From: a virus
Taxonomy: Duplodnaviria > Heunggongvirae > Uroviricota > Caudoviricetes
IMG/VR virus record: IMGVR_UViG_649989948_000010
Coordinates: 1 to 31,670 of that record
Length of the DNA stretch: 31,670 bases
Reading direction: 5' to 3' (one strand)
Below the pieces are notes generated by a model. That model did not search any database, was not told the origin of the DNA, and saw nothing but the letters and a program-made list of their open reading frames with translations. This document shows, one piece after another, positions 105 to 30,485 of the stretch (positions within the stretch are counted from its first letter, which is position 1; each line of letters opens with the position of its first letter). The position numbers and the translations under genes were made by a program.

Positions 105-1205
105 ATGAGCGAGTCCAAATCGCCGGATGCCCTGAGAGCAATGGTAGCCGGTACGCTGGCTAATTTTCAGCACCCAACCCTGAAACACAACCTGACTACG
201 CTTAAAGCGTTACACCATGTTGCGTTGATGGATGACACACTGCATGTCGAACTAATCATGCCTTTCGTGTGGAATAAGCCTTTTGAAGACCTGAAAGAGC
301 AATGTAGTGGTGATCTGCTCCGTATCACTGGCGCAAAGGCTATTGACTGGAAGCTGTCGTACAACATTGCCACGCTTAAGCGCGTCAAAAACCAACCAGG
401 CATTAATGGCGTTAAGAACATTATCGCCGTCAGCTCAGGCAAGGGCGGCGTGGGTAAATCCTCCACGGCGGTAAATCTGGCACTGGCGTTGGCTGCTGAA
501 GGTGCGAAAGTTGGTATTTTGGATGCCGATATCTACGGGCCATCAATTCCAACCATGCTGGGCGCGGAAAACCAACGTCCAACCTCACCGGACGGTACTC
601 ACATGGCACCTATCATGTCTCATGGCCTGGCAACCAACTCTATTGGTTATCTGGTCACCGACGACAATGCAATGGTGTGGCGTGGACCGATGGCCAGCAA
701 GGCGCTGATGCAGATGTTGCAGGAAACACTGTGGCCTGATCTGGACTATCTTGTTCTCGATATGCCGCCGGGCACTGGTGATATTCAGTTGACGCTGGCG
801 CAGAACATTCCTGTAACTGGTGCTGTTGTGGTAACTACGCCGCAAGACATCGCGCTGATCGATGCGAAGAAAGGCATTGTGATGTTCGAAAAAGTCGAAG
901 TGCCGGTACTGGGTATCGTCGAAAACATGAGTGTGCATATTTGCAGTAACTGCGGTCATCACGAGCCAATTTTTGGCACCGGTGGCGCAGAGAAACTGGC
1001 CGAGAAATACAACACGCAGTTGTTAGGCCAAATGCCACTTCATATCTCTCTTCGTGAAGATCTGGATAACGGAACACCAACCGTTATTAGTCGTCCAGAT
1101 AGCGAATTTACGGCTATTTATCGTGACCTCGCAGATCGCGTTGCTGCCCAAATGTATTGGCAAGGCGAAGTAATACCTGGAGAGATCGCATTCCGCGCAG
1201 TGTGA
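105..1205 (+). CDS. apbC: Fe-S cluster carrier ATPase ApbC/Mrp
   Basis: 366 aa; P-loop GKGGVGKSS, Mrp/NBP35 CxxC motif (CSNCGH); near-identical by recall to E. coli ApbC; AAGGAG RBS 6 nt before ATG. Confidence 0.95.
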   Translation: MSESKSPDALRAMVAGTLANFQHPTLKHNLTTLKALHHVALMDDTLHVELIMPFVWNKPFEDLKEQCSGDLLRITGAKAIDWKLSYNIATLKRVKNQPGINGVKNIIAVSSGKGGVGKSSTAVNLALALAAEGAKVGILDADIYGPSIPTMLGAENQRPTSPDGTHMAPIMSHGLATNSIGYLVTDDNAMVWRGPMASKALMQMLQETLWPDLDYLVLDMPPGTGDIQLTLAQNIPVTGAVVVTTPQDIALIDAKKGIVMFEKVEVPVLGIVENMSVHICSNCGHHEPIFGTGGAEKLAEKYNTQLLGQMPLHISLREDLDNGTPTVISRPDSEFTAIYRDLADRVAAQMYWQGEVIPGEIAFRAV

Positions 1206-1210: not shown

Positions 1211-1229
1211 AGGCGGTGCATTGCACCGC
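1211..1229. terminator. Bidirectional intrinsic terminator between convergent apbC and UmuD'-like gene
   Basis: Perfect 9-bp inverted repeat GGCGGTGCA/TGCACCGCC; A-run on one side, giving a U-run on the minus-strand transcript. Confidence 0.5.
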
Positions 1230-1242
1230 CTAATCAGTTCTC

Positions 1243-1632
1243 CTACATCACGGGACAATCATCAAACTCGCCACTTCTTGCGTCGTTGATAATGTGAGTG
1301 ATCACACCAAACACGGCATTGCTGCCCGTGCATCCATCGTCATCCTTTGGCAATGCTTCCTTCTTACCGGTTCTTAAATCCTCCAGATGCTGACGTGGAT
1401 ACTTCCGGTATCTTTTTACGCGATATTCCCCATCCAGAGCGCATACAAGCAGAGAACCATCAACCGGGGTAAGTGAGGAATCGACCACCAGCAATGCACC
1501 CTGTAATATTCCCTCACGATGATGACTATCAGCTGCCCTCATGAAGTAGGTCGCTGAAGGATGTCTAATTATCTGCTGATCAAGAGAAATACGGCTCTCA
1601 GCATAATCCGCCGCAGGAGAAGGGAAGCCCAT
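1243..1632 (-). CDS. UmuD'-like S24 peptidase-family protein, naturally lacking the UmuD N-terminal arm
   Basis: 129 aa starting MGFPSPAADY, i.e. at the position of the UmuD Cys24-Gly25 cleavage site; Ser (ADSH) and Lys (VKRY) of the catalytic dyad retained; in-frame TGA directly upstream rules out a longer form; GAGG RBS. Confidence 0.7.
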   Translation of the reverse strand: MGFPSPAADYAESRISLDQQIIRHPSATYFMRAADSHHREGILQGALLVVDSSLTPVDGSLLVCALDGEYRVKRYRKYPRQHLEDLRTGKKEALPKDDDGCTGSNAVFGVITHIINDARSGEFDDCPVM

Positions 1633-1650
1633 AGCGTTTTCACCTCAGAA

Positions 1651-1670
1651 TACTGTTTATCCATACAGTA
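1651..1670 (-). promoter_or_regulatory. LexA (SOS) box upstream of the UmuD'-like gene
   Basis: Minus-strand TACTGTATGGATAAACAGTA matches CTGT-N8-ACAG; centred about 28 nt upstream of the ATG and overlapping a candidate -10 TATACT. Confidence 0.6.
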
Positions 1671-2334
1671 TACATTAAAGATGCTTGAAGTGTGCAATAG
1701 CGCGATGCTTTGCGCTCGCCTGGTGGCGCGTTATTTTTTGGCTATATCTTCTTTCTGATATACCGGATCGTTTCCTTTTGGCAGCAGGAGGCTTAACTAC
1801 CGGTAGTGCCGTAGCCGTTCCATGAAATAGGTGCGCAGGTTCTCAGGTTGCTCACGGGCTACCTGTTCCGCTATGACGGGTATGTTCAATCGCTCTTTGT
1901 AGGCAACCCCCCCTGGCAGCCAGGTCAACGTTAACTTTATTCCTTTCTTCCTGGCTTTTAGCTGCTATGTTCCAGTTGCTCATGTTTAAGGCTCACATTT
2001 CCAGATGGTATTCTGAACACCCGAACCGGGCGTAAGATGAGGGTTAGCGTTCGCACTATGCTGATATACAGCTTTGGACTTTCCATATTGCTGACAGGCT
2101 TTATCTGCGGTTTTTTGCAGGCTATCCAGCCCATACCAGCCATCAGACTGGATGCTTACCTTTTCACCGTCATTGTATTGCACCATCGCGCCCCCAAACA
2201 TAGCTATCATCGCACCGACAATACCGCTTTTCCAAAAAGCTCTAATTAGGTCATTCGTAGCCTAATGTCCGAACTGCTAAAGCATCCAAGTTGCTGTAGA
2301 ATCACCGCCAATTACATAAGCCTGAAATAAGTGG

Positions 2335-3897
2335 ATGAAAATGACAAGTATTCAACAACGTGCAGAGCTTCATCGTCAAATCTGGCAAATTGCTAACGAT
2401 GTCAGGGGTTCGGTCGATGGATGGGATTTTAAGCAATACGTTCTGGGCGCACTTTTCTACCGTTTTATCAGCGAAAATTTTTCCAGCTATATTGAAGCCG
2501 GTGATGACAGTATCTGTTATGCGAAACTGGATGACAGCGTAATTACTGATGACATTAAAGACGATGCCATCAAAACCAAAGGTTACTTCATCTACCCAAG
2601 TCAGCTTTTCTGCAACGTAGCTGCGAAAGCAAATACCAATGACAGACTGAATGCAGATTTAAACAGCATCTTCGTTGCTATCGAAAGTTCTGCTTACGGT
2701 TACCCTTCAGAAGCTGACATCAAAGGTTTGTTTGCTGATTTCGATACCACCAGTAACCGCCTGGGTAACACCGTTAAGGATAAAAATGCCCGCCTGGCTG
2801 CGGTTCTGAAAGGGGTTGAAGGGTTAAAGCTTGGCGACTTTAACGAACATCAGATTGACCTGTTCGGCGATGCCTATGAGTTCCTGATTTCTAACTATGC
2901 CGCGAATGCTGGTAAGTCAGGCGGCGAGTTCTTTACACCGCAGCACGTCTCTAAGCTGATTGCACAACTGGCTATGCACGGGCAGACCCACGTTAACAAA
3001 ATCTACGACCCGGCCGCAGGTTCCGGTTCGCTGTTGTTGCAGGCGAAAAAGCAGTTTGATGACCATATCATCGAAGAAGGCTTTTTTGGTCAGGAGATCA
3101 ACCATACGACCTATAACCTGGCGCGTATGAACATGTTTTTGCACAACATCAACTACGACAAGTTTGATATCAAGTTGGGCAATACGCTGACTGAGCCGCA
3201 CTTCAGAGATGAAAAACCGTTTGATGCCATCGTTTCTAACCCGCCGTATTCGGTGAAATGGATTGGCAGCGATGACCCGACGCTGATTAACGATGAACGT
3301 TTTGCCCCGGCTGGCGTTCTGGCCCCCAAATCCAAAGCTGACTTTGCGTTTGTATTACATGCGCTGAACTATCTTTCGGCCAAAGGTCGCGCTGCGATTG
3401 TCTGCTTCCCAGGCATTTTTTACCGTGGCGGCGCGGAGCAGAAAATCCGTCAGTATCTGGTCGACAATAACTATGTCGAAACCGTGATTTCACTGGCACC
3501 GAATCTGTTCTTTGGCACCACTATTGCCGTCAATATTCTGGTGCTGTCTAAACATAAAACGGATACCAAAGTTCAGTTTATTGATGCCAGCGAACTGTTC
3601 AAAAAAGAGACTAACAACAACATTCTGACCGATGCTCATATCGAACAGATTATGCAGGTATTTGCCAGCAAGGAAGATGTTGCTCATCTGGCGAAATCTG
3701 TTGCGTTTGAGACTGTTGTCGCGAATGACTATAACCTGTCGGTGAGCAGCTATGTGGAAGCGAAAGATACTCGCGAAATTATCGATATCGCTGAGCTGAA
3801 TGCTGAGCTGAAAACCACGGTCAGCAAAATCGACCAGTTGCGTAAAGATATTGATGCGATTGTTGCTGAGATTGAAGGTAGCGAGGTACAGGCATGA
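2335..3897 (+). CDS. hsdM: Type I restriction-modification methyltransferase subunit HsdM (type IC-like)
   Basis: 520 aa; N6-adenine MTase motifs ([12 protein letters not shown]); N-terminus matches the EcoR124-family HsdM as I recall it; 4-bp ATGA overlap with hsdS. Confidence 0.93.
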
Positions 3898-5141
3898 GCG
3901 AGCTGAGTTATCTGGAAAAACTGCTGGATGGGGCTGAGGTTGAGTGGGTAGCATTAAATAAATTAGCAACTTTTTTAAAAGGGAAGTCTTTACCTAAAGA
4001 AAAAATAACTCCAGATGGCAATAGATATTGTATTCATTACGGTGAGCTTTTCACTCATTATGGTCCCATAATTGACAAAGTATGCTCAAAAACAAACCAA
4101 GCAATCAATGAGTCAATTCTATCTGAAAAAAATGATGTTCTAATGCCAACGTCAGACGTTACACCAAGAGGTTTGGCTACAGCTAGTTGCATTCAAGAAA
4201 GTGGCGTTATTTTAGGCGGCGATATTTTGATTATTAGATGCTCTGGTGTTGATGGTAGATATCTAAGTAATTTCATAATAAATAACAAAAAAAAGATATT
4301 GCAAATGGTTAAAGGTTCTACTGTTTATCATTTGTATGCTAAAGATATAGGTAAATTACTTATCCCCATCCCTTGCCCCAACAACCCGGAAAAGTCGCTG
4401 GCTATCCAGTCTGAAATCGTCAGGATTCTGGATAAATTTACTGCACTTACCGCTGAGCTTACCGCTGAGCTTAGCATGCGTAAAAAACAATACAACTACT
4501 ATCGCGACCAGTTGTTGAGTTTTAAAGAGGGTGAGGTTGAGTGGAAAGCTTTGGGGGAAATTGGTGAAGTTCGTATGTGTAAACGAATCCTAAAATCACA
4601 AACATCTTCTGAGGGAGAGATTCCATTTTATAAAATTGGGACATTTGGTAAGGAACCCGATTCCTATATATCTAGAAAACTATTTAATGAATTTAAAGAA
4701 AAATATAGTTATCCTAAAGTTGGCGAAGTATTGATTTCTGCCAGTGGGACCATCGGCAGGACTGTTATATTTGATGGTAGGGAATCATATTTCCAGGATA
4801 GCAATATTGTCTGGATTGAAAATAATGAAAAAATAGTTTTAAATAAATATTTATTCTATTTCTATAAAATAGCAAAATGGGGAATATCTGAAGGTGGAAC
4901 TATTAAAAGACTTTATAATGATAACTTAAGAAAACTTATGATACCAGTACCATTTCCTGATTCTCCTGAAAGATCGCTAGTTGAACAACAAAAAATAGTG
5001 AAATTACTGGATAAATTTGATGCTTTGACCAATTCCATCACCGAAGGTCTTCCGCGTGAAATCGAGTTGCGCCAGAAACAATACGAGTACTATCGTGATT
5101 TACTGTTCAGTTTTCCCAAACCTGAAACTATCAGTAACTAA
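3894..5141 (+). CDS. hsdS: Type I restriction-modification specificity subunit HsdS
   Basis: 415 aa; conserved central ([16 protein letters not shown]) and C-terminal ([37 protein letters not shown]) regions flanking two AT-rich variable domains. Confidence 0.9.
4448..4471 (+). repeat. Tandem 12-bp repeat (TACCGCTGAGCT x2) encoding TAEL-TAEL in the HsdS central spacer
   Basis: Direct tandem duplication read in the sequence; repeat number in this spacer sets recognition-site spacing in type IC systems. Confidence 0.85.
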
Positions 5142-5262
5142 TTGACCATTGCTACCGACCGGATCACCTTAACATCCGGTCTATATAGAGACTATTTTTT
5201 ACACGCCGGAAGTCGCCCTTAAAGCCCTTCCGGCCCTTGCCAGACGGCACAAAGGATGCGCT

Positions 5263-8200
5263 ATGACTCATCAGACACACACCATTGCTGAATCCAATAA
5301 CTTTATCGTTCTTGATAAGTACATCAAAGCCGAGCAAACAGGCGACAGCTACCAGAGCGAATCGGACCTGGAACGTGAACTGATTCAGGATCTGCGGAAT
5401 CAGGGCTATGAATTTATTTCCGTAAAATCTCAGTCGGCGATGCTGGCCAACGTTCGGGAACAGCTTCAGAACCTCAATGGTGTGGTGTTTAATGACAGCG
5501 AATGGCGGCGTTTCACGGAGCAGTATCTGGATAACCCGAGCGATGGCATCCTGGATAAGACCCGTAAAATCCATATCGACTATATTTGCGACTTTATTTT
5601 TGATGACGAGCGTCTTGAGAACATCTATTTGATAGATAAAAAGAATCTCATGCGCAACAAGGTGCAGATTATCCAGCAGTTTGAACAGACGGGTTCTCAT
5701 GCTAACCGTTATGACGTCACGATCCTGGTTAATGGCTTACCGCTGGTACAAATCGAACTGAAAAAGCGCGGCGTGGCGATTCGTGAGGCCTTTAACCAGA
5801 TACATCGTTACAGCAAAGAGAGTTTTAACAGCGAAAATTCTCTGTTTAAGTATCTGCAACTGTTTGTCATTTCCAACGGCACCGATACCCGTTACTTTGC
5901 CAACACGACAAAGCGCGATAAAAACAGTTTTGACTTCACCATGAATTGGGCGAAATCAGACAACACGCTGATTAAAGACCTCAAAGACTTTACCGCCACC
6001 TTTTTCCAGAAACATACCCTGCTTAATGTCTTAGTGAACTACAGCGTATTCGATGTTAGCCAAACGCTACTGGTGATGCGACCGTACCAGATTGCCGCCA
6101 CTGAGCGCATTCTGTGGAAAATTAAGAGTTCCTTTACAGCGAAGAACTGGTCAAAACCGGAAAGCGGTGGGTATATCTGGCACACTACCGGTTCAGGTAA
6201 AACCCTCACCAGCTTTAAAGCCGCGCGTCTGGCAACAGAGCTGGACTTTATTGATAAAGTCTTCTTCGTGGTCGACAGGAAAGACCTCGATTACCAGACC
6301 ATGAATGAATATAAGCGTTTTTCGCCAGACAGCGTCAACGGCTCGGAAAATACCGCAGGTCTTAAACGCAATCTGGATAAGGACGATAACAAAATTATCG
6401 TCACCACTATTCAGAAACTTAATAACCTGATGAAAGCAGAAAGCGACCTGCCTGTATACAATCAGCAAGTGGTGTTTATATTTGATGAATGTCACCGCAG
6501 CCAGTTTGGAGAAGCGCAGAAAAACCTGAAGAAGAAATTCAAACGCTATTATCAGTTTGGTTTTACCGGCACACCTATTTTCCCGGAAAACGCCTTAGGC
6601 TCAGAAACGACCGCCAGCGTATTTGGTCGTGAATTGCATTCGTATGTAATTACCGATGCGATTCGTGATGAAAAAGTGCTCAAATTCAAGGTGGACTACA
6701 ACGATGTGCGGCCACAGTTTAAATCTTTAGAGACAGAAACCGACGAGAAAAAACTGAGTGCGGCTGAAAATCAGCAGGCATTTCTTCATCCCATGCGTAT
6801 ACAGGAAATTACGCAATATATTCTGAATAACTTCCGCCAGAAGACCCACCGTACTTTCCCAGGTTCCAAAGGCTTTAATGCCATGCTGGCAGTGAGTAGC
6901 GTGGATGCCGCGAAAGCCTATTACGCGACGTTTAAACGGTTACAAGAGGAAGCAGCTAATAAATCGGCTACCTATAAACCGCTGCGTGTTGCAACAATCT
7001 TCTCCTTTGCCGCCAATGAAGAACAAAATGCCATTGGTGAAATTTCCGATGAAACTTTTGATACCAGCGCAATGGACAGCAGTGCTAAAGAGTTTCTTGA
7101 CGCTGCAATTCGTGAGTATAACAGCTATTTTAAAACTAACTTCAGCACCGACAGTAACGGTTTTCAGAACTACTATCGTGATTTAGCCCAACGGGTTAAA
7201 AATCAGGATATCGATCTGTTAATTGTCGTTGGGATGTTTTTAACCGGCTTCGACGCTCCAACATTGAACACGCTATTCGTCGATAAAAACTTGCGTTTTC
7301 ACGGCCTGATGCAGGCATTCTCCCGTACCAACCGCATTTATGACGCTACTAAAACCTTCGGTAACATCGTCACTTTTCGGGATCTGGAACGCTCAACCAT
7401 TGATGCCATAACGCTGTTTGGTGATAAAAATACTAAAAATGTGGTGTTAGAAAAGAGTTATGCTGAGTATATGGAAGGCTTTACAGATGCTGCCACTGGT
7501 GAAGCTAAACGCGGCTTTATGGCAGTAGTTTCAGAACTGGAACAACGGTTCCCTGACCCTGCCAGTATTGAAAGTGAAAAAGAGAAGAAAGACTTCGTAA
7601 AACTGTTTGGTGAATACCTGCGTGCCGAGAACATCCTGCAAAACTATGATGAATTTGCCACGCTGAAAGCCCTGCAACAAATCGATCTTAGCGATCCTGT
7701 TGCGGTAGAAAAATTCAAAGCAGAACATTATGTGGATGATGAAAAGTTCGCTGAATTGCAAACAATTCGTCTCCCTGCTGAACGCAAGATTCAGGATTAT
7801 CGTTCTGCCTATAACGATATTCGCGACTGGCAGCGCCGTGAGAAAGAAGCTGAGAAAAAAGAGAAATCAACCACTGACTGGGATGACGTAGTTTTTGAGG
7901 TCGATTTGCTGAAGTCTCAGGAAATAAACCTGGATTATATCCTTGGACTGATTTTCGAACACAACAGACAAAATAAAGGCAAGGGCGAAATGATCGAAGA
8001 GGTCAAACGCTTAATTCGTTCAAGCCTGGGGAACCGGGCGAAAGAGGGCCTGGTGGTCGATTTTATTCAGCAAACGAACCTGGATGATTTACCAGACAAA
8101 GCCAGTATCATTGAGGCATTCTTTACGTTTGCTCAACGCGAACAGCAACGTGAAGCAGAAGCATTGATAAAAGAAGAAAATCTCAATGAAGAGGCGGCGA

Positions 8201-8379
8201 AACGCTATATTCGCACGTCTTTAAAACGCGAATACGCCACCGAAAATGGCACAGAATTAAACGAGACATTACCAAAACTTAGTCCGTTAAACCCGCAATA
8301 TAAAACGAAAAAACAGACCGTTTTCCAGAAAATCGTCACGTTTATTGAAAAGTTCAAAGGAGTAGGTGGGCAGATATAG
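5263..8379 (+). CDS. hsdR: Type I restriction endonuclease subunit HsdR (type IC-like)
   Basis: 1038 aa; SF2 helicase motifs (TGSGKT, DECHRS), type I HsdR architecture; AGGA RBS. Confidence 0.93.
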
Positions 8380-8437
8380 TGTATTAATCTGAACCAGATC
8401 TGGCAGACATCTGTGCAAATTGCAGATAGCTGTCAGA

Positions 8438-8914
8438 TCAAACCATCGTAGGGATGTTTGTATCCACTTTGAACTCAGGTACACCAACGAACTCTTTAAC
8501 CTTCATCTGGTAGCCGGTTCTGTCAGTTTTGATGACTTCCTGTTTGCCCTCTATAAACTGCTCACGCCACTCGTCGCGACGGGAAGCTGGCATGATCAGC
8601 AAAACGTTAGTCATATCCGTGACCTTCCTCCAGTACTCGGCCCAAATATTCTGTTTCACCCATTCCAGATCGACTTTATCCAGCCAAGCTCGATTCAAAC
8701 GTGAGCGTTCTTCATCTGGTCGATGGTTCAGTTGCAGCAGGCGATTAATCATGTTGTGGCGTTCGTCGCCATAAACGAAGTCGTGAACCTGATACATGAA
8801 GGCGATCTCTTTCTCGCACTCGGCTACGATTTCGTGGATGACGTTCATTTCCTGACGATAATCGATAGCAGTGTTTGAGTTGGTATCGTCGATGATGGAA
8901 AGAGCTGTATTCAT
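8438..8914 (-). CDS. Hypothetical protein (158 aa), first gene after hsdR, convergent with it
   Basis: ORF with ATG start; contains an R-x5-H motif (RLLQLNH) that could be HEPN-like; no family recognised. Confidence 0.45.
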   Translation of the reverse strand: MNTALSIIDDTNSNTAIDYRQEMNVIHEIVAECEKEIAFMYQVHDFVYGDERHNMINRLLQLNHRPDEERSRLNRAWLDKVDLEWVKQNIWAEYWRKVTDMTNVLLIMPASRRDEWREQFIEGKQEVIKTDRTGYQMKVKEFVGVPEFKVDTNIPTMV

Positions 8915-12197: not shown

Positions 12198-12788
12198 CTA
12201 CTTGTTATAAACAAAACCAATATCTTTCTTGTGAGGCATATCTGCTGCTGAAAAAGCTGCGATCTTCGCGAGTCGATCACATATTTCATTTTCACGATGC
12301 CCGGCGTGACCTTTAACCCACTTCCAGCGAACATTATGTCGACTTGCGGCCTCATCCAGACGCTTCCACAGATCAACATTCTTTACCGGTTTTTTGTCAG
12401 AAGTCATCCATCCATTGCGTTTCCACCATTTCATCCACTGTGTCATGCCGTTTTTCAGATACTGGCTATCAGAGTACAAAATAACGTTGCATGGATATTT
12501 CAAACGCTCCAGCCCGATAAGTGCCCCCATCATCTCCATGCGGTTATTGGTGGTGCTATGAAAACCATCTGAGAACTCGCGTTCCTCACCACCATACTGG
12601 AGAACTATACCGTAACCGCCCGGGCCACCCGGATTTTTAAGGCAAGAGCCATCACTGAAGATTTTCACGGTTTTAAGCTGGGGATTGAACTCTACGACAG
12701 GCGTTGTGGAATTGGTGCGGGGAGAATTTTTGTTTTTGTCATTTTTGCGAGTTTTTGCTTGCGATCGGGCTGGTGTCTTCGTCGTCAT
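12198..12788 (-). CDS. rnhA: Ribonuclease HI
   Basis: Strong match to E. coli RnhA motifs (FTDGSC, TNNRMEL-like, [21 protein letters not shown]); start placed at internal MTTKT with AGGAG RBS rather than the longer ORF-track start at 12875. Confidence 0.85.
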
Positions 12789-13373
12789 ATAAACTCCTGA
12801 ATCAAGCGCCGCGCCGATTTTTTTTCCTCGCGCGTGCGCACACGCGTGCGTGTTAATAATTATTAAAATAAACAAATTACTTCCCAGAACAGGTTTTTAT
12901 AAACCTGAACTGAACGAACGAAGTGAGTGAAGTTCACCTCGAACGAAGTGAGAGGTTGTCTTTTCAGGTAATACTCTCCCAGGGAGGTGAGTACAAAATT
13001 TCCTCACCAACCTGGTCGTTTCATAACCTGAAAAGTTATGACCTAAGTCTACTGCCAGCTTAGGCTTGGGAAGTTATGGATGACAGCACCCCAGAACCGA
13101 GATCTTCCCACACTTTATGAAGGGGAGTACTGGATTCAACCTCTCGAAACACCCCAGACTCGACAATCATAAAGTGACCCTTGTCTCTGCTCACTTTGGT
13201 TCCCCCTTCCCCAACCCCTAAACGGTGCCGGTTCTACGCTGGTAGTGAGCTTTTTTAAACCTGACGCCAGTGACGCTTACCCCCACCCATCAGGTCGAGC
13301 CTCCAATCTACGACTGGAAACTATCAGATCTTAGCACTTACAATTCACTTTATGAATAGTTTGTACTTATCTA

Positions 13374-17364: not shown

Positions 17365-18009
17365 CTAATGAACGGTCACTCGGCCACAGAACCGGTTTTC
17401 TATCTTTTCTACAGCGTTATCTAGCATTCTCATCACTGATCTGGCTCTTGCTTCAACTGTGCGATACCGGTTGGAAACGACGAAGGTTTGCAGATCTCCC
17501 CTTTGCGGATGCAGGTGAATTTTTGTCAGTTCCCCGCACATCAACGCATCAATACGAGCGACATACAGACGGTCTAATGATGCTCGTTGTGACCGCAAGT
17601 AATCTCGCTCTGAGAGAGCGACCCCCGGGCGTAGGCCAGCAATGGCGTTAAAGTTTGAAATAGCAGTTTTGTGGCAAAACTTTTCGATATCGAGGGCTAA
17701 CTCAATACACCGATCTTCATTTGTATGGCCGACCAAATCCAACGTGTAGGCCATAACATCAGCAGGTGTGCGATCGATAACAAAGCCTTCAGCACCACGC
17801 GTAAGTAGCTCTATATGCTTTGCTATTTCCATTTGAATCTGAAGCCGCTCATATAGAGGCATAGAATCACCTACTCGAACACCGAGGCGGCTCATCAAAC
17901 TTCCGACACCAGCATCCACGTAAGGGATTCCGTAATGTTTGTCGATATATTTAGCCAGGGTTGTTTTCCCACTGCCCTGAGCACCAGTGATCCCAATCCG
18001 GTAATCCAT
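17365..18009 (-). CDS. P-loop kinase, probable deoxynucleoside monophosphate kinase
   Basis: Walker A GAQGSGKTT; sits in the dNTP-synthesis operon with 1-nt overlap to the DHFR stop. Confidence 0.5.
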   Translation of the reverse strand: MDYRIGITGAQGSGKTTLAKYIDKHYGIPYVDAGVGSLMSRLGVRVGDSMPLYERLQIQMEIAKHIELLTRGAEGFVIDRTPADVMAYTLDLVGHTNEDRCIELALDIEKFCHKTAISNFNAIAGLRPGVALSERDYLRSQRASLDRLYVARIDALMCGELTKIHLHPQRGDLQTFVVSNRYRTVEARARSVMRMLDNAVEKIENRFCGRVTVH

Positions 18010-18485
18010 TACGACCTTCTGTATACGATCTGCGAAAAGCCAGGCTCTTCCTCGCTGGCTCGTTGGGTATAAGCTGTTTCAACAGGCACAAAGCCTAAAT
18101 TACGCATCATGCTTGCCGGGAAGAATGCATCGGCGTTTGGCACATCAACGCCGATGTGGGAGAGCCAAATCTCTTCAACATGCGGCATGAATAGCGAGTA
18201 AATTTGTTCCCCGCCAATCACCCACACAGGCTCTGGTAATCGCAACACATCATCCACACCAGCAGGGTAGAATCCATTTGGTACAAAGCCATGAGAGCGC
18301 GTCAAAACGAGGTTATGACGCTCTGGAAGAGGGCGTTTGAGACTTTCCATCGTTTTACGCCCCATAACGACAGTGGCGTTTTTGGTGAGTCTCTTAAATA
18401 GCTTCAGATCGGTAGAACAACGCCAGGGCAGTTCATTCGCTATGCCGATCTCATAGTTACGGCCAACAGCAGCTATCATCTTCAT
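18009..18485 (-). CDS. frd: Dihydrofolate reductase
   Basis: 158 aa; DHFR pattern (MIAAVGRNYEIG...LPW, VVMGRKT.ESL) and typical size. Confidence 0.85.
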   Translation of the reverse strand: MKMIAAVGRNYEIGIANELPWRCSTDLKLFKRLTKNATVVMGRKTMESLKRPLPERHNLVLTRSHGFVPNGFYPAGVDDVLRLPEPVWVIGGEQIYSLFMPHVEEIWLSHIGVDVPNADAFFPASMMRNLGFVPVETAYTQRASEEEPGFSQIVYRRS

Positions 18486-18896: not shown

Positions 18897-20000
18897 TCAC
18901 ACCGCCACTGGAACCTTGATCCACGGTAGAGGGGCATAGCCAAGAATAAGAATCTCGTCCCATTTGAAATCATCCAGCTCAGACCATTCATTAGGGAATA
19001 TAACGACCGGATCTGAATGCTCTGGAGCCTGTCGTTGCATTAGCTCACACACACCTTCCATGTGGTTGTTGTACAAATGCACGTCAAAGCCAAAATGCAC
19101 AAATGCACCGGCCATGTGACCCGTAATCTTCGCGAGAAAATGAGTGAGAATGCCATAGCCAGCAATATTGAATGGCATACCAACAAAAGTGTCTACGCTA
19201 CGCTGTACGAGGCAGGAGTTGAGGATGCGTTTGGGGATTCCAAGTTCATCCAGTTCAGCTTCAGTAACACTGCCGTCTATCTCCAGATCGTATAGCATCT
19301 TGGTGTAGATAGACTCGTAACCGAGGCGACTGTGTTGAAGACCAATGTCAGTTGCCATCGTTAAACGGGTTTCAAAATCCAGCTCACGACTCCACAAAGA
19401 GAAGACAAAGTGGCAAGGTGGCAGTTTCATATCCTCAAGCTCGCCTACGTTCCATGCGTTAAGCATGATGCGACGATCGGTAGGGTTCATGCGCAGTGTA
19501 TCGACAATACGCTGTAGCTGATCGATTTCACGGGACAGCACTACGCGATCTTCACTGATACCCAGGTATCCCTCGACTTTGTACCCGCGTTCACGGAAAG
19601 TAGCGATCTTGCTCAGATATTCACTATGGCTCACGATGCGGGTATCTTCCCATCGACGCCACTGCTTACCGTAAACCGGCCCCAAATCGCCATTCTCATC
19701 GGCCCATGCATCCCAAATCTTAACGCCGTTATCCTTGAGAAATTGGATGTTGCCCGTGCCTTTCAGATACCACTCAAGTTCGACAAGCAGTGGCTTAAGA
19801 TTTACCGCCTTTCCAGAAATAAGCGGCACAGTCCCACCAGTAAGCATGTAGTAAGAGGGAACGTAACAGGTGCTTAAAGTACCAGTGCCTGTGCGATCAT
19901 CAGCCTGCACGCCGCTTTTAAGCACCGTCTCAATAACTTTTGCATACGATGCGTTTGTTACCTGACCGTTCGTATGCTCACGATTCAAAAGGAGTGACAC
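18897..20000 (-). CDS. thyA: Thymidylate synthase (ThyA family, long form with insertions)
   Basis: Motifs DRTGTGT, GDLGPVYGKQWR, active-site PCH, DxHxYxNH; start placed at in-frame GTG with GAGG RBS (ORF-track start at 20027 is also GTG). Confidence 0.85.
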   Translation of the reverse strand: MSLLLNREHTNGQVTNASYAKVIETVLKSGVQADDRTGTGTLSTCYVPSYYMLTGGTVPLISGKAVNLKPLLVELEWYLKGTGNIQFLKDNGVKIWDAWADENGDLGPVYGKQWRRWEDTRIVSHSEYLSKIATFRERGYKVEGYLGISEDRVVLSREIDQLQRIVDTLRMNPTDRRIMLNAWNVGELEDMKLPPCHFVFSLWSRELDFETRLTMATDIGLQHSRLGYESIYTKMLYDLEIDGSVTEAELDELGIPKRILNSCLVQRSVDTFVGMPFNIAGYGILTHFLAKITGHMAGAFVHFGFDVHLYNNHMEGVCELMQRQAPEHSDPVVIFPNEWSELDDFKWDEILILGYAPLPWIKVPVAV

Positions 20001-20171
20001 AAAAACCTCACAAAGATAAGTAACCACTTATTCATTGCGTGAGTTTACATTTATTGAGAGAACAAGACCAGACAGATAAAAAAATGGTGGCCATAGGCCA
20101 CCAAAAACGAATAGTTGTTTCAGAAATTTAACGCGCCAGCGCAATATACACAGATAGATAACTACCTACAA

Positions 20172-21118: not shown

Positions 21119-22261
21119 TTACAGGTCTGCAAACTGGCTTAGAGAAGCCTTATCCACGGTAGAATCGATCTGACCTACCAGATATGTGCTTTGCTCTGCC
21201 TCTTGTGGTGCAATTTGCAGTGTGTCGGTTAACAACCACTTGTTCATCCAGACCAGCGGATCAGTGGTAACTTCTGGAAATAAAGCCTTCAGGCCAAGAC
21301 GATTCATAGCCAGATTGGTGCGGTATTTTACATAGGTTTTGAGAATATCCGCGTTTAAACCAATCATCGAACCGTCTTTGAAGAGATAGTCTGCCCAGTT
21401 CATTTCTTGTTCGGCGACTGATTTCATGGTGTCGTAAATGACGTTTTCTTCATCAGCAGCAATCTCTTTCCACAATAAACCTTCGCGACCGGTACGCATG
21501 AAGCGGATCATGCGTTCAGTTCCTTCGCAATGCAGAGCTTCATCACGGGCAATAAAGCGCATAATTTTGGTGTTACCCTCAAGCAACTTCCGTTCACCAA
21601 AGGCAAACGTACATGCAAAACTTACGTAGAAACGGATCGCCTCAAGCGCATTAATGGACACCAACGTGCGGAAAAGCTGACGATGCAAAGGGTATGGCTC
21701 CCAGCCATATTCATTTACGTACAGACGCTCAAATTCCTTCTCACCTAACGACTGGCGCTCGCAGGTCATCCCATAAAGCCTGTCATATTCAGCAGAGATA
21801 CTGATCGCTCGGTTGATGATTTCTTCATCCGTAACAATACCGTCAAAAACAATGCTCGGATCGTCCACCATGCCACGAATAATGTGGGTGTAGCTGCGGC
21901 TATGGATAGTCTCAGAGAAAGACCATGTTTCAACCCACGTTTCCAGTTCAGGAATAGAGATAAGCGGCAGCAGCGTTGCATTTGGGCTACGTCCCTGAAC
22001 TGAATCGAGTAACGTTTGATAACGGAGATTGCTCAGAAAAATGTGACGTTCGTGGTCCCGCAGCTTCGTGTTGAAGTCGATACGATCGCTCGAAATATCA
22101 ACTTCTTCCGGCCGCCAGAAGAAAGACAATTGACGTTCAATCAACTTTTCAAAATCACGGTATTTTTGCTGATCGTAACGTGCCACGTTGACAGATTGTC
22201 CGAGGAACATAGGCTCTTTGGTTGCATCATTAGCACCCAAACGGAACGTTGAATATGACAT
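21119..22261 (-). CDS. nrdB: Ribonucleotide reductase class Ia small subunit
   Basis: 380 aa; collinear with E. coli NrdB ([60 protein letters not shown]); divergent, phage-type. Confidence 0.92.
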
Positions 22262-22292
22262 GTGTTTTTCCTTTTTCTTTTTTGGTGCGTTT

Positions 22293-22305
22293 AAACAAGT
22301 TGTTA
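22293..22305 (-). promoter_or_regulatory. Palindrome-like motif AAACAAGTTGTTA upstream of nrdB
   Basis: Third copy (one mismatch) about 38 nt upstream of the nrdB ATG, with extra half-site at 22313-22324 and the same GTGTTTTTCC leader. Confidence 0.35.
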
Positions 22306-22340
22306 TCTTATGTGTTTAAACAAGGCTTACAAATCAAAGA

Positions 22341-22359
22341 GAAGGTGGGGATATCCCCC
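22341..22359 (-). terminator. Stem-loop between nrdA and nrdB (possible attenuator)
   Basis: GGTGGGG/CCCCACC stem with ATATC loop, directly after the nrdA stop and followed on the minus strand by a T-rich tract. Confidence 0.35.
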
Positions 22360-22367
22360 ACCATATG

Positions 22368-24683
22368 TCAGATTTTGCAGGCTCCGTCGCACTCATCTTC
22401 TGGCTCGACGGCTACAGCTTGCGCCAGTGGATTCTGCGGTTCGTCGTCATCACGTTTTCCTGCACCATCTCTGGTGTTGTGGTAGTAAAGCGTTTTAACT
22501 CCCATCTTGTAGGCGAGAAGCAAATCTGACAGTAGCGTCATCATTGGGACTTTATCGCCTTCAAAGCGAGAAGGGTCATAGTTGGTATTGGCTGAAATAG
22601 CCTGGTCAAAGAACTTCTGGATGATCGCCACCTTTGTCAGATAGCCGCGGTTGTCCGGCATATCCCACAGGTATTCATACTGTTCCTTCAGTTTTTCAAA
22701 CTCAGGCACGACCATCTTAACGATGCCGTCCTTAGAAGATTTCACCGACACCGGGCCACGAGGCGGTTCGATGCCGTTGGTGGAATTAGTGATCTGGCTG
22801 GAAGTCTCGCATGGCATTTGTGCCGTCAGTGTGGAGTTGCGAAGGCCGTATTTTGCAATACGTTCACGCAGTTCTTCCCACGGCATCTTTAACTCAAAGT
22901 TGGTTTCGCCACTTTCGTCTAATGAAGAACGGTAATGGTCGATCGGCAACTGACCAATTGCGTACTTGGTCTGCTCAAACCAGTCACACTCACCTTTTGC
23001 TTCAGCAAGTCGGCAGCTGGCATCAAGAAGGTAATACTGGATAGCTTCGAATGTTTCATGCACCAGTTTATTGCCAGCGGTATCAGAATAACGAACGCCA
23101 TTCTTTGCCAGGTAATAAGCAAAGTTGGTTACACCAATTCCCAAGCTACGACGAGCTTTGGCAGGCACTTCGGCTGCCTCCATCGGATAGTCTTGATAAT
23201 CCAGTAACGAATCCAGTGCAGCAACGGCATAGAACGCCACCTCTTTAAGAGACTCCAGTGAACGGATGGCTCCGAGGTTAAAAGCGGATAAAGTGCATAG
23301 CGCGATCTCACCGTTCGGGTCGTCGGTAAATGCCAGTGGACGGGTGGGTAGGGTGATCTCCATACACAGGTTTGACTGGCGGACAGGTGCAAGAGCAGGA
23401 ATGAAAGCGCCATGCTCATTAATATGATCGACGTTCGCAATATAAATTCGGCCCGTGGACGCTCGTTCCTGCATCAGAGATGAGAACAGCTCAATGGCAG
23501 GTACTGACTTCTTGCGAATTGAATCATCGGCTTCGTATTTATGGTACAGCTTTTCAAACAGCTCCTGGTCTGTGAAGAAGGCTTCGTACATATCAGGCAC
23601 ATCATGCGGGCTGAACAGAGTGATGTTCTCGCTTCTGACGAGTCGACGGTACATTAGACGGTTACTCATGACGCCGTAATCAAGATGGCGAACGCGGTTT
23701 TCATCAATACCACGGTTATTTTTCACCACCAGCAGACTTTCAACTTCAAGATGCCAGATCGGGTAAAACGCTGTTGCTGCGCCACCACGAACACCACCTT
23801 GCGAACAAGATTTAACAGCCGTCTGGAAATGCTTCAGGAATGGAATAACTCCGGTATGGGTGGCTTCACCATTGCGGATCTCGCTGCCCAGCGCACGGAT
23901 ACGGCCAAAACCAATACCAATTCCAGCACGACGTGAAACGTAGTCGATAATTGCGGCTGAAGCTGCACTAATCCCTTTCAGGCTATCGCCAGACTCAATC
24001 AGCACACAACTGGAGAACTGACGGGTTGGAGTACGGACGCCGGCCATGATTGGTGTGGGCAGAGACAGTTTGAACGTACTTGTAACGTCATAGAAACCTT
24101 TGACCATCTCCATACGTGTTTTGCCAGCGCAGTCGTCTTCCCAATTCTGGAACAGACACATGCCTACCAGCATATAGATATGTTGCGGCCCCTCATGAAT
24201 CTCACCAGTAACACGGTTTTGAACGAGGTATTTGCTTTGCAACTGCACCGTAGCTGCATAGCCAAAAAGATCGTCACGTTTCGGCTTAATGTAATTGCCG
24301 AGTTCTTCGATCTCTTCAAACGAATAATGTGTCAGCAAATCCTTGTCATAAACGCCCTTGTTAACGTTCTTGACAATGTGTTGGTAGAAGTTCGGATAGT
24401 CGTAACGACCGAAGGCATCTTTGCGGATTTTAAAAATGTTCAGGCGGGCAGCCACCTGTGAGTAATTTGGTGCTTCTGGTGAGATCAAATCAGCGGCAGA
24501 TTTAACCAAAGCCTCATGCAACTGGCTGGTGGTCATCCCATCAAAAATGCTGGCCGCAGCTCCCATTGCTACAGCGGATGCGCTTACACCACGAATGCCT
24601 TCTACGCCATACATTACGACGCGGTTGTATTTTTCTTCGGATAACGGCTCTGTTTGGCCGTTACGTTTTACGATGCTTATCAT
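22368..24683 (-). CDS. nrdA: Ribonucleotide reductase class Ia large subunit
   Basis: 771 aa; ATP-cone-like N-terminus, C-terminal Tyr pair; collinear with E. coli NrdA. Confidence 0.92.
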   Translation of the reverse strand: MISIVKRNGQTEPLSEEKYNRVVMYGVEGIRGVSASAVAMGAAASIFDGMTTSQLHEALVKSAADLISPEAPNYSQVAARLNIFKIRKDAFGRYDYPNFYQHIVKNVNKGVYDKDLLTHYSFEEIEELGNYIKPKRDDLFGYAATVQLQSKYLVQNRVTGEIHEGPQHIYMLVGMCLFQNWEDDCAGKTRMEMVKGFYDVTSTFKLSLPTPIMAGVRTPTRQFSSCVLIESGDSLKGISAASAAIIDYVSRRAGIGIGFGRIRALGSEIRNGEATHTGVIPFLKHFQTAVKSCSQGGVRGGAATAFYPIWHLEVESLLVVKNNRGIDENRVRHLDYGVMSNRLMYRRLVRSENITLFSPHDVPDMYEAFFTDQELFEKLYHKYEADDSIRKKSVPAIELFSSLMQERASTGRIYIANVDHINEHGAFIPALAPVRQSNLCMEITLPTRPLAFTDDPNGEIALCTLSAFNLGAIRSLESLKEVAFYAVAALDSLLDYQDYPMEAAEVPAKARRSLGIGVTNFAYYLAKNGVRYSDTAGNKLVHETFEAIQYYLLDASCRLAEAKGECDWFEQTKYAIGQLPIDHYRSSLDESGETNFELKMPWEELRERIAKYGLRNSTLTAQMPCETSSQITNSTNGIEPPRGPVSVKSSKDGIVKMVVPEFEKLKEQYEYLWDMPDNRGYLTKVAIIQKFFDQAISANTNYDPSRFEGDKVPMMTLLSDLLLAYKMGVKTLYYHNTRDGAGKRDDDEPQNPLAQAVAVEPEDECDGACKI

Positions 24684-25335: not shown

Positions 25336-26079
25336 TTACCATGTTCCCCATATAGGGTTTTCCAATAATCTCGCCTCCAACGAATTGGCTACTATTGCCG
25401 TTTGCAACGTTGGTTGGGGATAGTTTGCAAAGTCTGAATACTCATTTTCCTGCGTGACACGTTTATCTGCGGCATGTTTAACACCACTTGCTATGAAATG
25501 ACGCATGATGCCCAACAGCCTCCGACTGTCTGCACTATCGTTTGCTAAAACATGAGGGAGCTGAAGTTCGATTTCTACCATTTCTCCATACTTCCCAACA
25601 AACTGTAGTTTGTCCGCACTGTACTTTTTATCCCTCCTTTGGATAAGGAAACCAGTAAAAGCATCACCTGGCGATGCCAAACTATCTACCCGCTTATTGG
25701 CAAGTCGAATAAGGTTCGTGAAAGCCATACAGTGATGCGCACCCATTCCCCCAAAGAACCCTTCGCTATTAATGTTAAGATCTTCAGTTTCATGGGATGC
25801 AATAAACCCAGGCCCGACGTTGGGAAGATATCCCCCCTCAACAAAAGGATTAATCAGGATCGGCGCAATACATCCAGGTGGTAGTGATTTCAAACTTTGC
25901 ATCAATGGCGTCTCGGATATTAGACCAAGCAACGCGGCGAATTGTACTCCGTCAATATTGTTGCTGCCCCACAGAATACGTGGAGCCGCACCATTGGAAG
26001 TATGCCCATTGATCAGTTTTATCGACTGCATCACTGCAAATACCTGCAAAAACTGCGAGCGGCTTAATTTAAACGACAT
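25336..26079 (-). CDS. Hypothetical protein (247 aa)
   Basis: AGAGGGG RBS; lies between the truncated SbcC-like gene and the RuvC-like gene; no family recognised. Confidence 0.5.
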   Translation of the reverse strand: MSFKLSRSQFLQVFAVMQSIKLINGHTSNGAAPRILWGSNNIDGVQFAALLGLISETPLMQSLKSLPPGCIAPILINPFVEGGYLPNVGPGFIASHETEDLNINSEGFFGGMGAHHCMAFTNLIRLANKRVDSLASPGDAFTGFLIQRRDKKYSADKLQFVGKYGEMVEIELQLPHVLANDSADSRRLLGIMRHFIASGVKHAADKRVTQENEYSDFANYPQPTLQTAIVANSLEARLLENPIWGTW

Positions 26080-26396
26080 AGCTGCGCCCCTCTTTAACTT
26101 CCAGCGTAATAGTTTCCCGGAACCATGACTTCATCTCTTTATGGGAGATAATCAGCACAGTACCTCGCTCGCGAGCTTTGGACTCCAGAATACCCATGAG
26201 GCGTTCAAGACCGGCTGTATCGAGTGCATCGTCAATTTCGTCGCCGATAAACAAATCGATGTTTTTACTCGCCCGGTTACTAACCAGATCCTGCAATGCC
26301 AAAGAACACGCAATGCGAACCTTCCGCTTCTCACCACCAGAGAGGGTCTGGAACGACTTACTTGAACCTTTCTTCTGCACACTAATGTTGAATTTG
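26069..26396 (-). pseudogene. 3' fragment of an SbcC/Rad50-like (ABC-type) ATPase gene, truncated by IS66 insertion
   Basis: Encodes only the C-terminal signature LSGGEKRK, Walker B/D-loop LFIGDEIDDALD and H-loop ISHK; reading frame runs into the IS66 left end at 26397. Confidence 0.55.
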
Positions 26397-26482
26397 TGTA
26401 AGCGTAAACTGACCGCCGTATGTAGCCATCAGACGAGAATTGGTAACTTAGACGCCCATCTGATATAGACGGACATCTAAGT

Positions 26483-27255: not shown

Positions 27256-27285
27256 AAAACTCCTGACCGCATTATAAAAACGGTC

Positions 27286-30410: not shown

Positions 30411-30467
30411 AAGTTATATTTTTATTAAACATTGTGCGTTAAAGCCTGGTGTGTTTTTTTAGTGGAT

Positions 30468-30485
30468 GTTATATTTAAATATAAC
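30468..30485 (+). promoter_or_regulatory. 18-bp perfect palindrome GTTATATTTAAATATAAC in the pemIK promoter region
   Basis: Perfect inverted repeat 18 nt upstream of the pemI ATG; consistent with an autoregulatory operator. Confidence 0.5.

What the first reader, a model, noticed from the sequence alone, without database searches (positions are those of the whole stretch)
1243..1670. Orphan SOS-controlled UmuD'-like gene that is born pre-processed
The ORF starts exactly at the residue corresponding to UmuD Gly25, with an in-frame stop immediately upstream, so it encodes the activated UmuD' form without needing RecA-mediated cleavage. A near-consensus LexA box sits 28 nt upstream. No umuC-like gene follows, and the C-terminus has a tail not found in UmuD. 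This resembles what I recall of the phage P1 HumD arrangement; it could modulate host Pol V mutagenesis or act as a decoy.
Basis: partly seen in the sequence, partly recalled or inferred. Interest (0 to 1): 0.5.

Follow-up and report, generated by a model that had tools for sequence, protein, structure and literature searches.

The report
Phage HumD: ready-made UmuD' gene

Summary
On the minus strand, 1632..1243 encodes a 129-aa protein whose Met1-Gly2 align with UmuD Cys24-Gly25, the RecA-dependent cleavage site. An in-frame TGA lies 5 codons upstream. A LexA box (1670..1651, TACTGTATGGATAAACAGTA) ends 18 nt before the ATG and overlaps a -10-like hexamer. An intrinsic terminator follows the stop codon. 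The window contains no umuC. A 10-residue C-terminal tail is absent from UmuD.

The protein matches NCBI's curated "HumD family translesion DNA polymerase" model end to end (219.8 bits, cut-off 120). It is 91.5% identical to P1 HumD and 100% identical to the protein of phage Cyrano and of pLF82-type phage-plasmids. The P1 record annotates the same LexA site and notes that HumD complements UmuD'.

The window is an SSU5/Cyrano-like E. coli phage-plasmid. Homologues in P1, N15, phiKO2, HK639 and others keep the MGFPSP start, and all seven compared loci have a LexA box. Longer database forms are miscalled starts. dN/dS against P1 is 0.055.

Two family details deserve follow-up. The catalytic Ser is Thr in about 40% of cluster representatives, and the C-terminal tail is nearly invariant with no known role.

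Verdict: already known, low interest.

The parts
1243..1632 (-). humD coding sequence (129 aa plus stop). It is a UmuD'-like S24-fold protein without the N-terminal arm or cleavage site.
   Evidence: ORF list. NCBIfam NF051876 HumD equivalog, 219.8 bits, profile positions 1-129 of 129. Pfam Peptidase_S24. UmuD' 1umu_A at E 6.7e-23, with query G2 aligned to UmuD G25. 91.5% identity to P1 HumD. dN/dS 0.055 against P1.
1633..1650 (-). 5' leader with the ribosome-binding site GAGGTG (1647..1642 on the + scale) 9 nt before the ATG. It contains the in-frame TGA (1647..1645) that closes the reading frame upstream.
   Evidence: Read directly from the sequence. Stop position.
1651..1670 (-). LexA operator (SOS box), TACTGTATGGATAAACAGTA.
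   Evidence: Only match in the window at 3 or fewer mismatches, and 0 of 100 shuffles gave any match. Equivalent boxes lie 14-19 nt before the start in P1, Cyrano, N15, HK639 and Ecl_MII_003, 44 nt before it in phiKO2, and 262 nt before it in HK140. Annotated as a LexA protein_bind site in the P1 record.
1667..1696 (-). Candidate sigma-70 promoter: -35 TGCACA (1696..1691), 18-nt spacer, -10 TATACT (1672..1667). The -10 overlaps the LexA box.
   Evidence: Consensus scan. The match is weak (9 of 12) and no more frequent than in shuffles, so it rests on position only. The -35 lies outside the segment shared with P1 and Cyrano.
1211..1231 (-). Intrinsic terminator beginning 11 nt after the humD stop codon (9-bp stem, 7 G-C pairs, then TTTTAT). 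It lies between humD and convergent apbC.
   Evidence: Also read directly from the sequence.

Best explanation
The gene is humD, carried as a self-contained cassette (LexA box, RBS, CDS, terminator) on an SSU5/Cyrano-type E. coli phage-plasmid.

Shown or documented:
- In undamaged cells, host LexA would sit on the operator that overlaps the -10 and keep the gene off. DNA damage activates RecA, LexA is cleaved, and humD is transcribed.
- The product begins Met-Gly, where Gly corresponds to UmuD Gly25. It therefore lacks the 24-residue arm that keeps UmuD inactive.

Inferred:
- Removal of the initiator Met before Gly is expected from general knowledge of methionine aminopeptidase. The mature N-terminus would then be the same as that of RecA-cleaved UmuD'.
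- Like UmuD', HumD should dimerise and bind the host's UmuC to form a Pol V-like translesion polymerase (HumD2-UmuC). No RecA-mediated cleavage step would be needed. The regulation exerted through the UmuD arm (delay, Lon and ClpXP targeting) would be absent.
- The likely benefit is lesion bypass and mutagenesis on damaged phage-plasmid and host DNA during SOS.

Evidence status: the gene anatomy and family membership are shown here. UmuC binding, RecA-filament binding and complementation of UmuD' are published for the 91.5%-identical P1 protein and inferred for this copy. The selective benefit to the phage is inference.
For: - Family membership: NF051876 HumD equivalog at 219.8 bits against a cut-off of 120, covering 1-129 of 129.
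- Close relatives: 91.5% identity to P1 HumD and 100% to Cyrano and pLF82.
- Start position: G2 aligns with UmuD G25.
- No possible N-terminal extension: in-frame TGA 5 codons upstream.
- Operator: LexA box found in 0 of 100 shuffles and overlapping a -10-like hexamer.
- Conservation: the box and the MGFPSP start recur across P1, Cyrano, N15, phiKO2, HK639 and Ecl_MII_003.
[quoted passage not shown] The title of McLenigan et al. 1999 J Bacteriol 181:7005 appears.
- Selection: strong purifying selection, dN/dS 0.055 at dS 0.77 against P1.
- No umuC in the window.
Against: - Nothing here measures expression or activity of this copy.
- From my recollection of McLenigan et al. 1999 (the paper was not held), P1 HumD complemented well only from a high-copy plasmid and is poorly expressed natively. 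Its physiological role is therefore not proven.
- P1 humD is non-essential for lytic growth in a CRISPRi screen (PMC10695390).
- The nearly invariant C-terminal tail (NDARxGEFDDCPVM) has no counterpart in UmuD' and no assigned role, so the protein may do more than mimic UmuD'.
- The predicted promoter is weak.
Confidence: 0.83

Rival explanations
1. HumD acts mainly as a decoy or modulator rather than a polymerase subunit. It would bind RecA filaments or host UmuD/UmuC non-productively, damping or re-timing SOS functions in the way DinI or PsiB do. The conserved C-terminal tail would be the effector part.
For: - dinI sits divergently at the same LexA box in phiKO2 and HK140, which links the cassette to RecA-filament modulators.
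- The C-terminal tail is nearly invariant (E122, F123, D124, D125, C126 and P127 each in 113 or more of 123 sequences) and is absent from UmuD.
- The catalytic Ser is Thr in 48 of 123 sequences, so peptidase chemistry is not what is being conserved.
- The gene is non-essential for P1 lytic growth.
Against: - Published complementation of UmuD' function by P1 HumD (P1 record note; title of McLenigan 1999) shows it can act positively with UmuC.
- No experiment points to inhibition.
- The residues shared with UmuD' run through the whole fold.
Confidence: 0.12
2. HumD is a trans-acting S24 peptidase. It kept the Ser-Lys dyad in order to cleave another protein, such as host UmuD, LexA or a phage repressor, within a heterodimer.
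For: - In this copy and in P1 the UmuD Ser60 and Lys97 equivalents are present (S36 and K73).
- Lys is retained in 120 of 123 family sequences.
- UmuD cleavage is known to occur between the two subunits of a dimer (general knowledge, not tested here).
Against: - The nucleophile position is Thr in 48 and Ala in 2 of 123 sequences.
- The surrounding G-D-S-M motif is not conserved.
- Lys is Met in HK639 and in the IncX3 plasmid copies, which otherwise keep the same gene layout.
- The score against the NCBIfam UmuD autoproteolytic-subunit model is below its cut-off (87 against 110).
Confidence: 0.04
3. The ORF is a decaying remnant of a umuDC operon that lost its 5' end and its umuC, with no function of its own.
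For: It is shorter than umuD and has no umuC. Its upstream neighbour hot is a pseudogene in this window.
Against: - dN/dS is 0.055 against P1 at dS 0.77.
- The same start, RBS position, LexA box and length of 126-130 aa recur in unrelated phage backbones.
- There is a dedicated terminator.
- A curated family model exists.
Confidence: 0.01

Closest known systems
Bacteriophage P1 HumD (P1_gp103, YP_006569.1) and the NCBIfam NF051876 HumD family
   Same: Same length (129 aa) and 91.5% identity. Both have the MGFPSP start at the UmuD Gly25 equivalent, the C-terminal NDARSGEFDDCPV[MI] tail, and a LexA box 18-19 nt before the ATG within an 86%-identical DNA segment. Neither has an adjacent umuC.
   Different: The genomic setting differs. 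P1 has hot-lxr-humD-phd-doc. Here the backbone is SSU5/Cyrano-like, lxr is missing (64 bp in place of 718 bp), hot is a frameshifted pseudogene, and the downstream neighbour is convergent apbC/metG instead of phd-doc.
E. coli UmuD / UmuD' (Pol V accessory subunit; PDB 1UMU, 1I4V, 8GMT)
   Same: Same S24 fold region, E 6.7e-23, aligned from UmuD Gly25 to near the C-terminus. The Ser60 and Lys97 equivalents are present in this copy. Both are LexA-regulated.
   Different: - HumD has no N-terminal 24-residue arm and no Cys24-Gly25 cleavage site, so it needs no RecA-mediated activation.
- It is not in an operon with umuC.
- It has a 4-residue insertion and a 10-residue conserved C-terminal tail.
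- GDSM is replaced by ADSH.
- It scores below the cut-off of the NCBIfam UmuD model (87 against 110).
Plasmid UmuD homologues (ImpA and umuD-type genes of conjugative plasmids)
   Same: Mobile-element-borne UmuD relatives with 38-48% identity over query residues 2-120.
   Different: Those are annotated as autoproteolytic subunits and the alignments stop before the HumD tail. That they have a cleavable arm and are paired with a umuC/mucB-type polymerase gene is general knowledge, not checked here. MucA itself was not retrieved: the plasmid hit I took for it turned out to be an IncX3 orphan copy.
N15 gp26, phiKO2 gp23, and the UmuD-like genes of HK140 and HK639
   Same: 64-72% identical members of the same family. 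They share the MGFPSP (VGFPSP in phiKO2) start, the tail, a LexA box and the absence of umuC. They lie in accessory positions next to tail-fibre, partition or integrase genes.
   Different: The Ser60 equivalent is Thr in these. Lys is Met in HK639. HK140 (and IncX3 plasmids) place a 79-aa ORF between the LexA box and humD. dinI is divergent in phiKO2 and HK140.

Membership tests
HumD family (NCBIfam NF051876, equivalog) | Full-length match to the curated family model above its cut-off. | tested here: met
   219.8 bits against a cut-off of 120, E 8e-66, protein 1-129 on profile 1-129 of 129.
HumD family (NCBIfam NF051876, equivalog) | Translation starts at the residue equivalent to UmuD Gly25, with no N-terminal arm and no cleavage site. 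| tested here: met
   Query G2 aligns with UmuD G25. An in-frame TGA lies 5 codons upstream. At the aligned positions 120 of 123 family sequences have Met1 and 120 have Gly2.
HumD family (NCBIfam NF051876, equivalog) | Conserved C-terminal extension (NDARxGEFDDCPVM) beyond the UmuD end. | tested here: met
   Residues 116-129 match the near-invariant family motif, and UmuD ends opposite residue 119.
HumD family (NCBIfam NF051876, equivalog) | Orphan gene with no cognate umuC-type polymerase gene alongside. | tested here: met
   A terminator and convergent apbC lie downstream. No Y-family polymerase appears in the annotation or the Pfam scan of the window.
HumD family (NCBIfam NF051876, equivalog) | LexA operator in the promoter region. 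| tested here: met
   Box at 1651-1670, found in 0 of 100 shuffles. A homologous site is annotated in P1. Actual LexA binding was not tested.
HumD family (NCBIfam NF051876, equivalog) | Functional substitution for UmuD', with binding to UmuC and to RecA filaments. | not testable with these tools
   Known only for P1 HumD (P1 record note; McLenigan 1999 as cited). Inferred here from 91.5% identity.
UmuD, autoproteolytic subunit of Pol V (NCBIfam NF007621) | Score above the family cut-off. | tested here: not met
   87 bits against a cut-off of 110.
UmuD, autoproteolytic subunit of Pol V (NCBIfam NF007621) | N-terminal arm carrying a Cys/Ala-Gly self-cleavage site. | tested here: not met
   The protein begins at the Gly, and the frame is closed upstream.
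UmuD, autoproteolytic subunit of Pol V (NCBIfam NF007621) | Ser-Lys catalytic dyad conserved. | tested here: inconclusive
   S36 and K73 are present in this copy. Across the family, Ser is Thr in 48 and Ala in 2 of 123 sequences, and Lys is kept in 120 of 123.
LexA repressor (TIGR00498) | N-terminal DNA-binding domain plus a full-length model match. | tested here: not met
   27.2 bits against a cut-off of 110.95, matching only profile positions 91-166. No N-terminal domain is possible. Database names such as 'LexA family transcriptional regulator' for some homologues are misnomers.

The most novel reading that the evidence does not exclude
The near-invariant C-terminal tail (E-F-D-D-C-P-V-M), together with the relaxed catalytic Ser (Ser or Thr), could mark HumD as more than a UmuD' copy. 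The tail extends from the C-terminal strand, which in UmuD' contributes to dimer contacts (my recollection of the 1I4V and 1UMU structures, not tested here). It could make HumD dimers refuse host UmuD as a partner and so escape ClpXP destruction, or it could recruit a different partner. That would give phages a Pol V activator that the host cannot switch off. Nothing in my data excludes this, and nothing tests it.
Probability: 0.2. Interest if true: 0.4.

Novelty: already known. Interest (0 to 1): 0.1.

Why it matters
The finding matters little as a discovery. HumD has been described since the 1990s, has a curated NCBI family model, and is annotated as such in current RefSeq records of sister plasmids.

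It is a useful positive control for the scan.

Three modest points remain open:
- The cassette (LexA box to terminator) moves as a unit between unrelated temperate phage and phage-plasmid backbones: P1, SSU5/Cyrano, N15/phiKO2, lambdoid phages and IncX3 plasmids.
- The family tolerates loss of the peptidase nucleophile.
- The conserved tail has no known function.

Tried and rejected
1. Reading the primary papers (McLenigan 1999, PMC94175; Lobocka 2004, PMC523184). Neither is held. Statements about HumD biochemistry therefore rest on the P1 GenBank note, on citing papers, and on my recollection of the abstract.

2. AlphaFold2 model built from a 56-sequence family alignment, intended to show where the tail packs. 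The best model had mean pLDDT 61.7, the other four 42-45, and the tail and N-terminus were below 50. It was too poor to interpret and I ran no fold search. The alignment is too shallow: every sequence is at least 67% identical to the query.

3. Looking for MucA among the plasmid hits. The 47.9% hits I took for IncN mucA turned out to be IncX3 plasmids carrying another orphan HumD-like gene behind a 79-aa ORF. No explicit MucA alignment was made. ImpA and umuD-type plasmid genes align at 38-44% over residues 2-120.

4. Upstream alternative start. Rejected for the window because of the TGA 5 codons upstream. Rejected for homologues because their extensions are unrelated to the UmuD arm.

5. Pseudogene remnant. 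Rejected by dN/dS of 0.055.

6. A second LexA site in the window. The only other CTGT-N8-ACAG (30575-30590) has a G+C-rich spacer and does not match the 20-nt consensus at 3 or fewer mismatches.

7. The sigma-70 scan gives a plausible but statistically unremarkable promoter, so I do not treat it as established.

Full report
**What is in the sequence**

The finding's interval covers a minus-strand gene, 1632..1243 including the stop codon. It encodes 129 aa: MGFPSPAADYAESRISLDQQ...INDARSGEFDDCPVM.

Upstream on the gene strand the sequence reads, in order:
- TGCACA (-35-like, 1696..1691), then an 18-nt spacer.
- TATACT (-10-like, 1672..1667).
- The 20-nt palindromic box TACTGTATGGATAAACAGTA (1670..1651).
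- GAGGTG (Shine-Dalgarno), then the ATG.

The box differs from the LexA consensus TACTGTATATATATACAGTA at three central positions only. It is the single match in 31.7 kb at 3 or fewer mismatches, and none of 100 dinucleotide-preserving shuffles gave a match. The looser pattern CTGT-N8-ACAG occurs once more, at 30575, with a G+C-rich spacer that is not LexA-like.

The box ends 18 nt before the ATG.

The reading frame is closed by a TGA 5 codons upstream, with no alternative start codon in between.

Eleven nucleotides after the stop codon lies a 9-bp G+C-rich hairpin followed by TTTTAT on the gene strand (1231..1211). Beyond it is the 3' end of convergent apbC. The gene is therefore a monocistronic unit of operator, RBS, CDS and terminator.

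**What the protein is**

- Pfam places it in Peptidase_S24.
- Against solved structures the best matches are UmuD' (1umu_A, E 6.7e-23) and full-length UmuD (8gmt_B). Query Gly2 aligns with UmuD Gly25, so Met1 takes the place of Cys24 at the RecA-dependent cleavage site.
- LexA C-terminal domains match only weakly (E about 1e-3).
- NCBIfam gives a full-length match to NF051876, 'HumD family translesion DNA polymerase', an equivalog model: 219.8 bits against a cut-off of 120, positions 1-129 of 129.
- It falls below the cut-offs of the UmuD model (87 against 110) and the LexA model (27 against 111).
- tblastn against phage genomes finds 100% identity in phage Cyrano, 91.5-92.2% in P1 and P7 (annotated humD), and 64-72% in phiKO2, N15, HK140, HK639 and an Enterobacter phage.
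- Among plasmids there is a clean gap. One group lies at 60% identity or above. The umuD/impA-type genes of conjugative plasmids lie at 50% or below, and their alignments stop at query residue 115-120, before the tail.

**Genomic setting**

- The window is identical over 1000-2400 to an E. coli plasmid (NZ_CP146657). Its RefSeq annotation reads metG, apbC, 'S24 family peptidase', frameshifted theta-subunit pseudogene, hsdM/S/R, then rnhA, a methyltransferase, an exonuclease, dfrA51, thyA and nrdBA.
- Newer RefSeq records of sister plasmids name the gene 'HumD family translesion DNA polymerase'.
- 68% of the first 25 kb is 97-99% identical to the phage-plasmids Cyrano, CMS-2020a and PhiR41_1. 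From 8444 onward it is 77% identical to Salmonella phage SSU5.
- The backbone is therefore an SSU5-type phage-plasmid, with roughly 1681-8440 (hot pseudogene plus a type I R-M system) as extra cargo.
- No Y-family polymerase gene is present anywhere in the window.

**Comparison with P1 and other relatives**

- The P1 RefSeq record annotates a LexA protein-binding site 19 nt upstream of humD ('LexA binding site in the regulatory region of lxr and humD'). It describes humD as 'DNA repair; functionally complements E. coli UmuD''.
- Window 1681..1244 aligns with that P1 segment at 86% nucleotide identity, and 1974..1746 aligns with P1 hot at 89.5%. The 718 bp that hold lxr in P1 are replaced here by 64 bp.
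- Homology with Cyrano also breaks at about 1680. The unit shared among backgrounds therefore begins about 10 nt outside the LexA box and runs through the CDS. In Cyrano it continues through the terminator into apbC, whereas in P1 it ends at the stop codon.
- In seven independent loci the gene starts M/V-G-F-P-S-P. A LexA box lies 14-19 nt upstream in P1, Cyrano, N15, HK639 and Ecl_MII_003, 44 nt upstream in phiKO2, and 262 nt upstream in HK140 (ahead of an inserted 79-aa ORF).

- Of the 120 best cluster representatives from a 5.8-billion-protein search, 100 are 126-130 aa long.
- The handful of longer entries carry an internal MGFPSP preceded by sequence unrelated to the UmuD arm. Examples are 'MDIQYLYCVF...', which I infer starts at an ATG inside the LexA box, and read-through from the 79-aa upstream ORF.
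- No homologue restores an N-terminal arm.
- Between the window and P1 copies, dN is 0.042 and dS is 0.77, giving dN/dS of 0.055. The short form is under strong purifying selection and is not a remnant.

**Family features beyond the finding**

In a 123-sequence family alignment:
- Met1 is present in 120 sequences and Gly2 in 120.
- The UmuD Lys97 equivalent (K73) is kept in 120.
- The Ser60 equivalent (S36) is Ser in 73, Thr in 48 and Ala in 2, and the G-D-S-M context is not conserved.
- HK639 and the IncX3 plasmid copies have Met in place of the Lys.
- The peptidase chemistry therefore does not appear to be what selection maintains, as expected for a protein with nothing to cleave in itself.
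- By contrast the C-terminal N-D-A-R-x-G/A-E-F-D-D-C-P-V-M is nearly invariant and has no counterpart in UmuD. Its role is unknown.
- An AlphaFold2 model from the shallow family alignment was too poor (pLDDT 61.7) to place the tail.

**Mechanism**

Shown here:
- The gene anatomy, family membership, conservation of start and operator, absence of umuC, and purifying selection.

Taken from established knowledge:
- PMC9603915: humD is LexA-regulated.
- The P1 record note.
- My recollection of McLenigan et al. 1999, which could not be retrieved: HumD dimerises, binds UmuC and RecA filaments, and restores mutagenesis in strains that cannot make UmuD'.

Inferred for this copy:
- After SOS induction LexA leaves the operator and HumD is made.
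- The initiator Met is probably removed before Gly.
- A HumD dimer joins host UmuC to give a Pol V-like enzyme, without the RecA-dependent cleavage delay and without the arm through which UmuD is controlled.

The benefit to the phage-plasmid is not established. P1 humD is dispensable for lytic growth (PMC10695390).

**Rivals**

- A decoy or modulator role is not excluded. It would fit the conserved tail and the dinI neighbourhood in phiKO2 and HK140, but it runs against the published complementation.
- A trans-protease role is made unlikely by the Ser/Thr/Ala and Lys/Met variation.
- A pseudogene is excluded.

**Verdict**

The feature is a textbook member of an already curated family on a known type of phage-plasmid. 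It is already known and of low interest. The open questions are the function of the tail and the biological pay-off of HumD for temperate phages.

Noticed in passing
window 1731..1983 (minus strand): The hot gene (phage homologue of DNA polymerase III theta), just upstream of humD, is a pseudogene here. It has one extra G in a G-run (a C7 run on the + strand near 1907-1913) relative to pPEC178_2 and P1. It also has a CAG-to-TAG change at codon 62, which pPEC178_2 shares. RefSeq flags it as 'frameshifted; internal stop'. The homopolymer difference could also be a sequencing error.
   Followed up: yes
window 1682..1745 compared with L001 (P1) 2233..2950: The LexA-regulated gene lxr, which lies between hot and humD in P1 and shares the LexA site, is absent. 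64 bp replace 718 bp. Homology to both P1 and Cyrano ends at about 1680, roughly 10 nt outside the LexA box, so the humD cassette appears to recombine as a unit.
   Followed up: partly
window ~1681..8440 (hsdM 2335-3897, hsdS 3894-5141, hsdR 5263-8379): A complete type I restriction-modification system plus the hot pseudogene forms a cargo block absent from Cyrano and SSU5. It lies directly beside humD.
   Followed up: partly
L007 (HK140) 1262-1890; L010 and L011 (IncX3 plasmids) 1559-2181: There is a second HumD layout: LexA box, then a conserved 79-aa ORF of unknown function, then humD. The start of humD overlaps the stop of the small ORF in HK140 and lies 2 nt after it in the IncX3 plasmids. 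The IncX3 copy has lost both the Ser and the Lys equivalents. In pEC-393 an adjacent IS26 appears to have truncated its C-terminus. Some database proteins of 159-223 aa are read-through fusions of the two ORFs.
   Followed up: partly
L005 (phiKO2) 1181-1423; L007 (HK140) 910-1176: dinI (a RecA-filament binding protein) is transcribed divergently from the humD LexA-box region in phiKO2 and HK140. This suggests a small SOS-modulating accessory module in these phages.
   Followed up: no
window 1243..1632, family alignment positions 36, 73 and 116-129: Across 123 HumD-family sequences the catalytic Ser equivalent is Ser 73, Thr 48 and Ala 2. Lys is kept in 120. The C-terminal NDARxGEFDDCPVM tail, absent from UmuD, is nearly invariant and has no known role.
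   Followed up: partly
window 105..1205 (apbC); metG lies upstream of the window in the identical plasmid (L003 16915-18948): Host-like housekeeping genes (apbC/mrp and methionyl-tRNA synthetase) are carried on the phage-plasmid next to humD. The Cyrano record annotates the apbC homologue as 'MinD'.
   Followed up: no
window 26069..28899: An IS66-family element (tnpA 26483-26908, tnpB 26905-27255, transposase 27286-28899) sits next to a 103-aa ORF with only SMC_N/SbcC Walker-B fragments. The insertion probably truncated that gene.
   Followed up: no
window 12198..12875, 18009..18485, 18897..20027, 21119..24683, 29757..31094: The window also holds a nucleotide-metabolism block: rnhA (frameshifted in RefSeq), dfrA51 trimethoprim-resistant DHFR, thymidylate synthase and nrdB/nrdA. 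There is also an Rce1-like CAAX protease ORF and a PemK/MazF toxin ORF. The CTGT-N8-ACAG at 30575-30590 just upstream of the toxin ORF does not look like a LexA site.
   Followed up: no
window 1711..1730 (+ strand): A terminator-like hairpin followed by TTATTTTTTG lies on the + strand about 40 nt beyond the LexA box, reading away from humD. It occupies the position where P1 has divergent lxr. Its significance is unclear: the scan found 2 terminator-like sites against 1.0 expected by chance.
   Followed up: no
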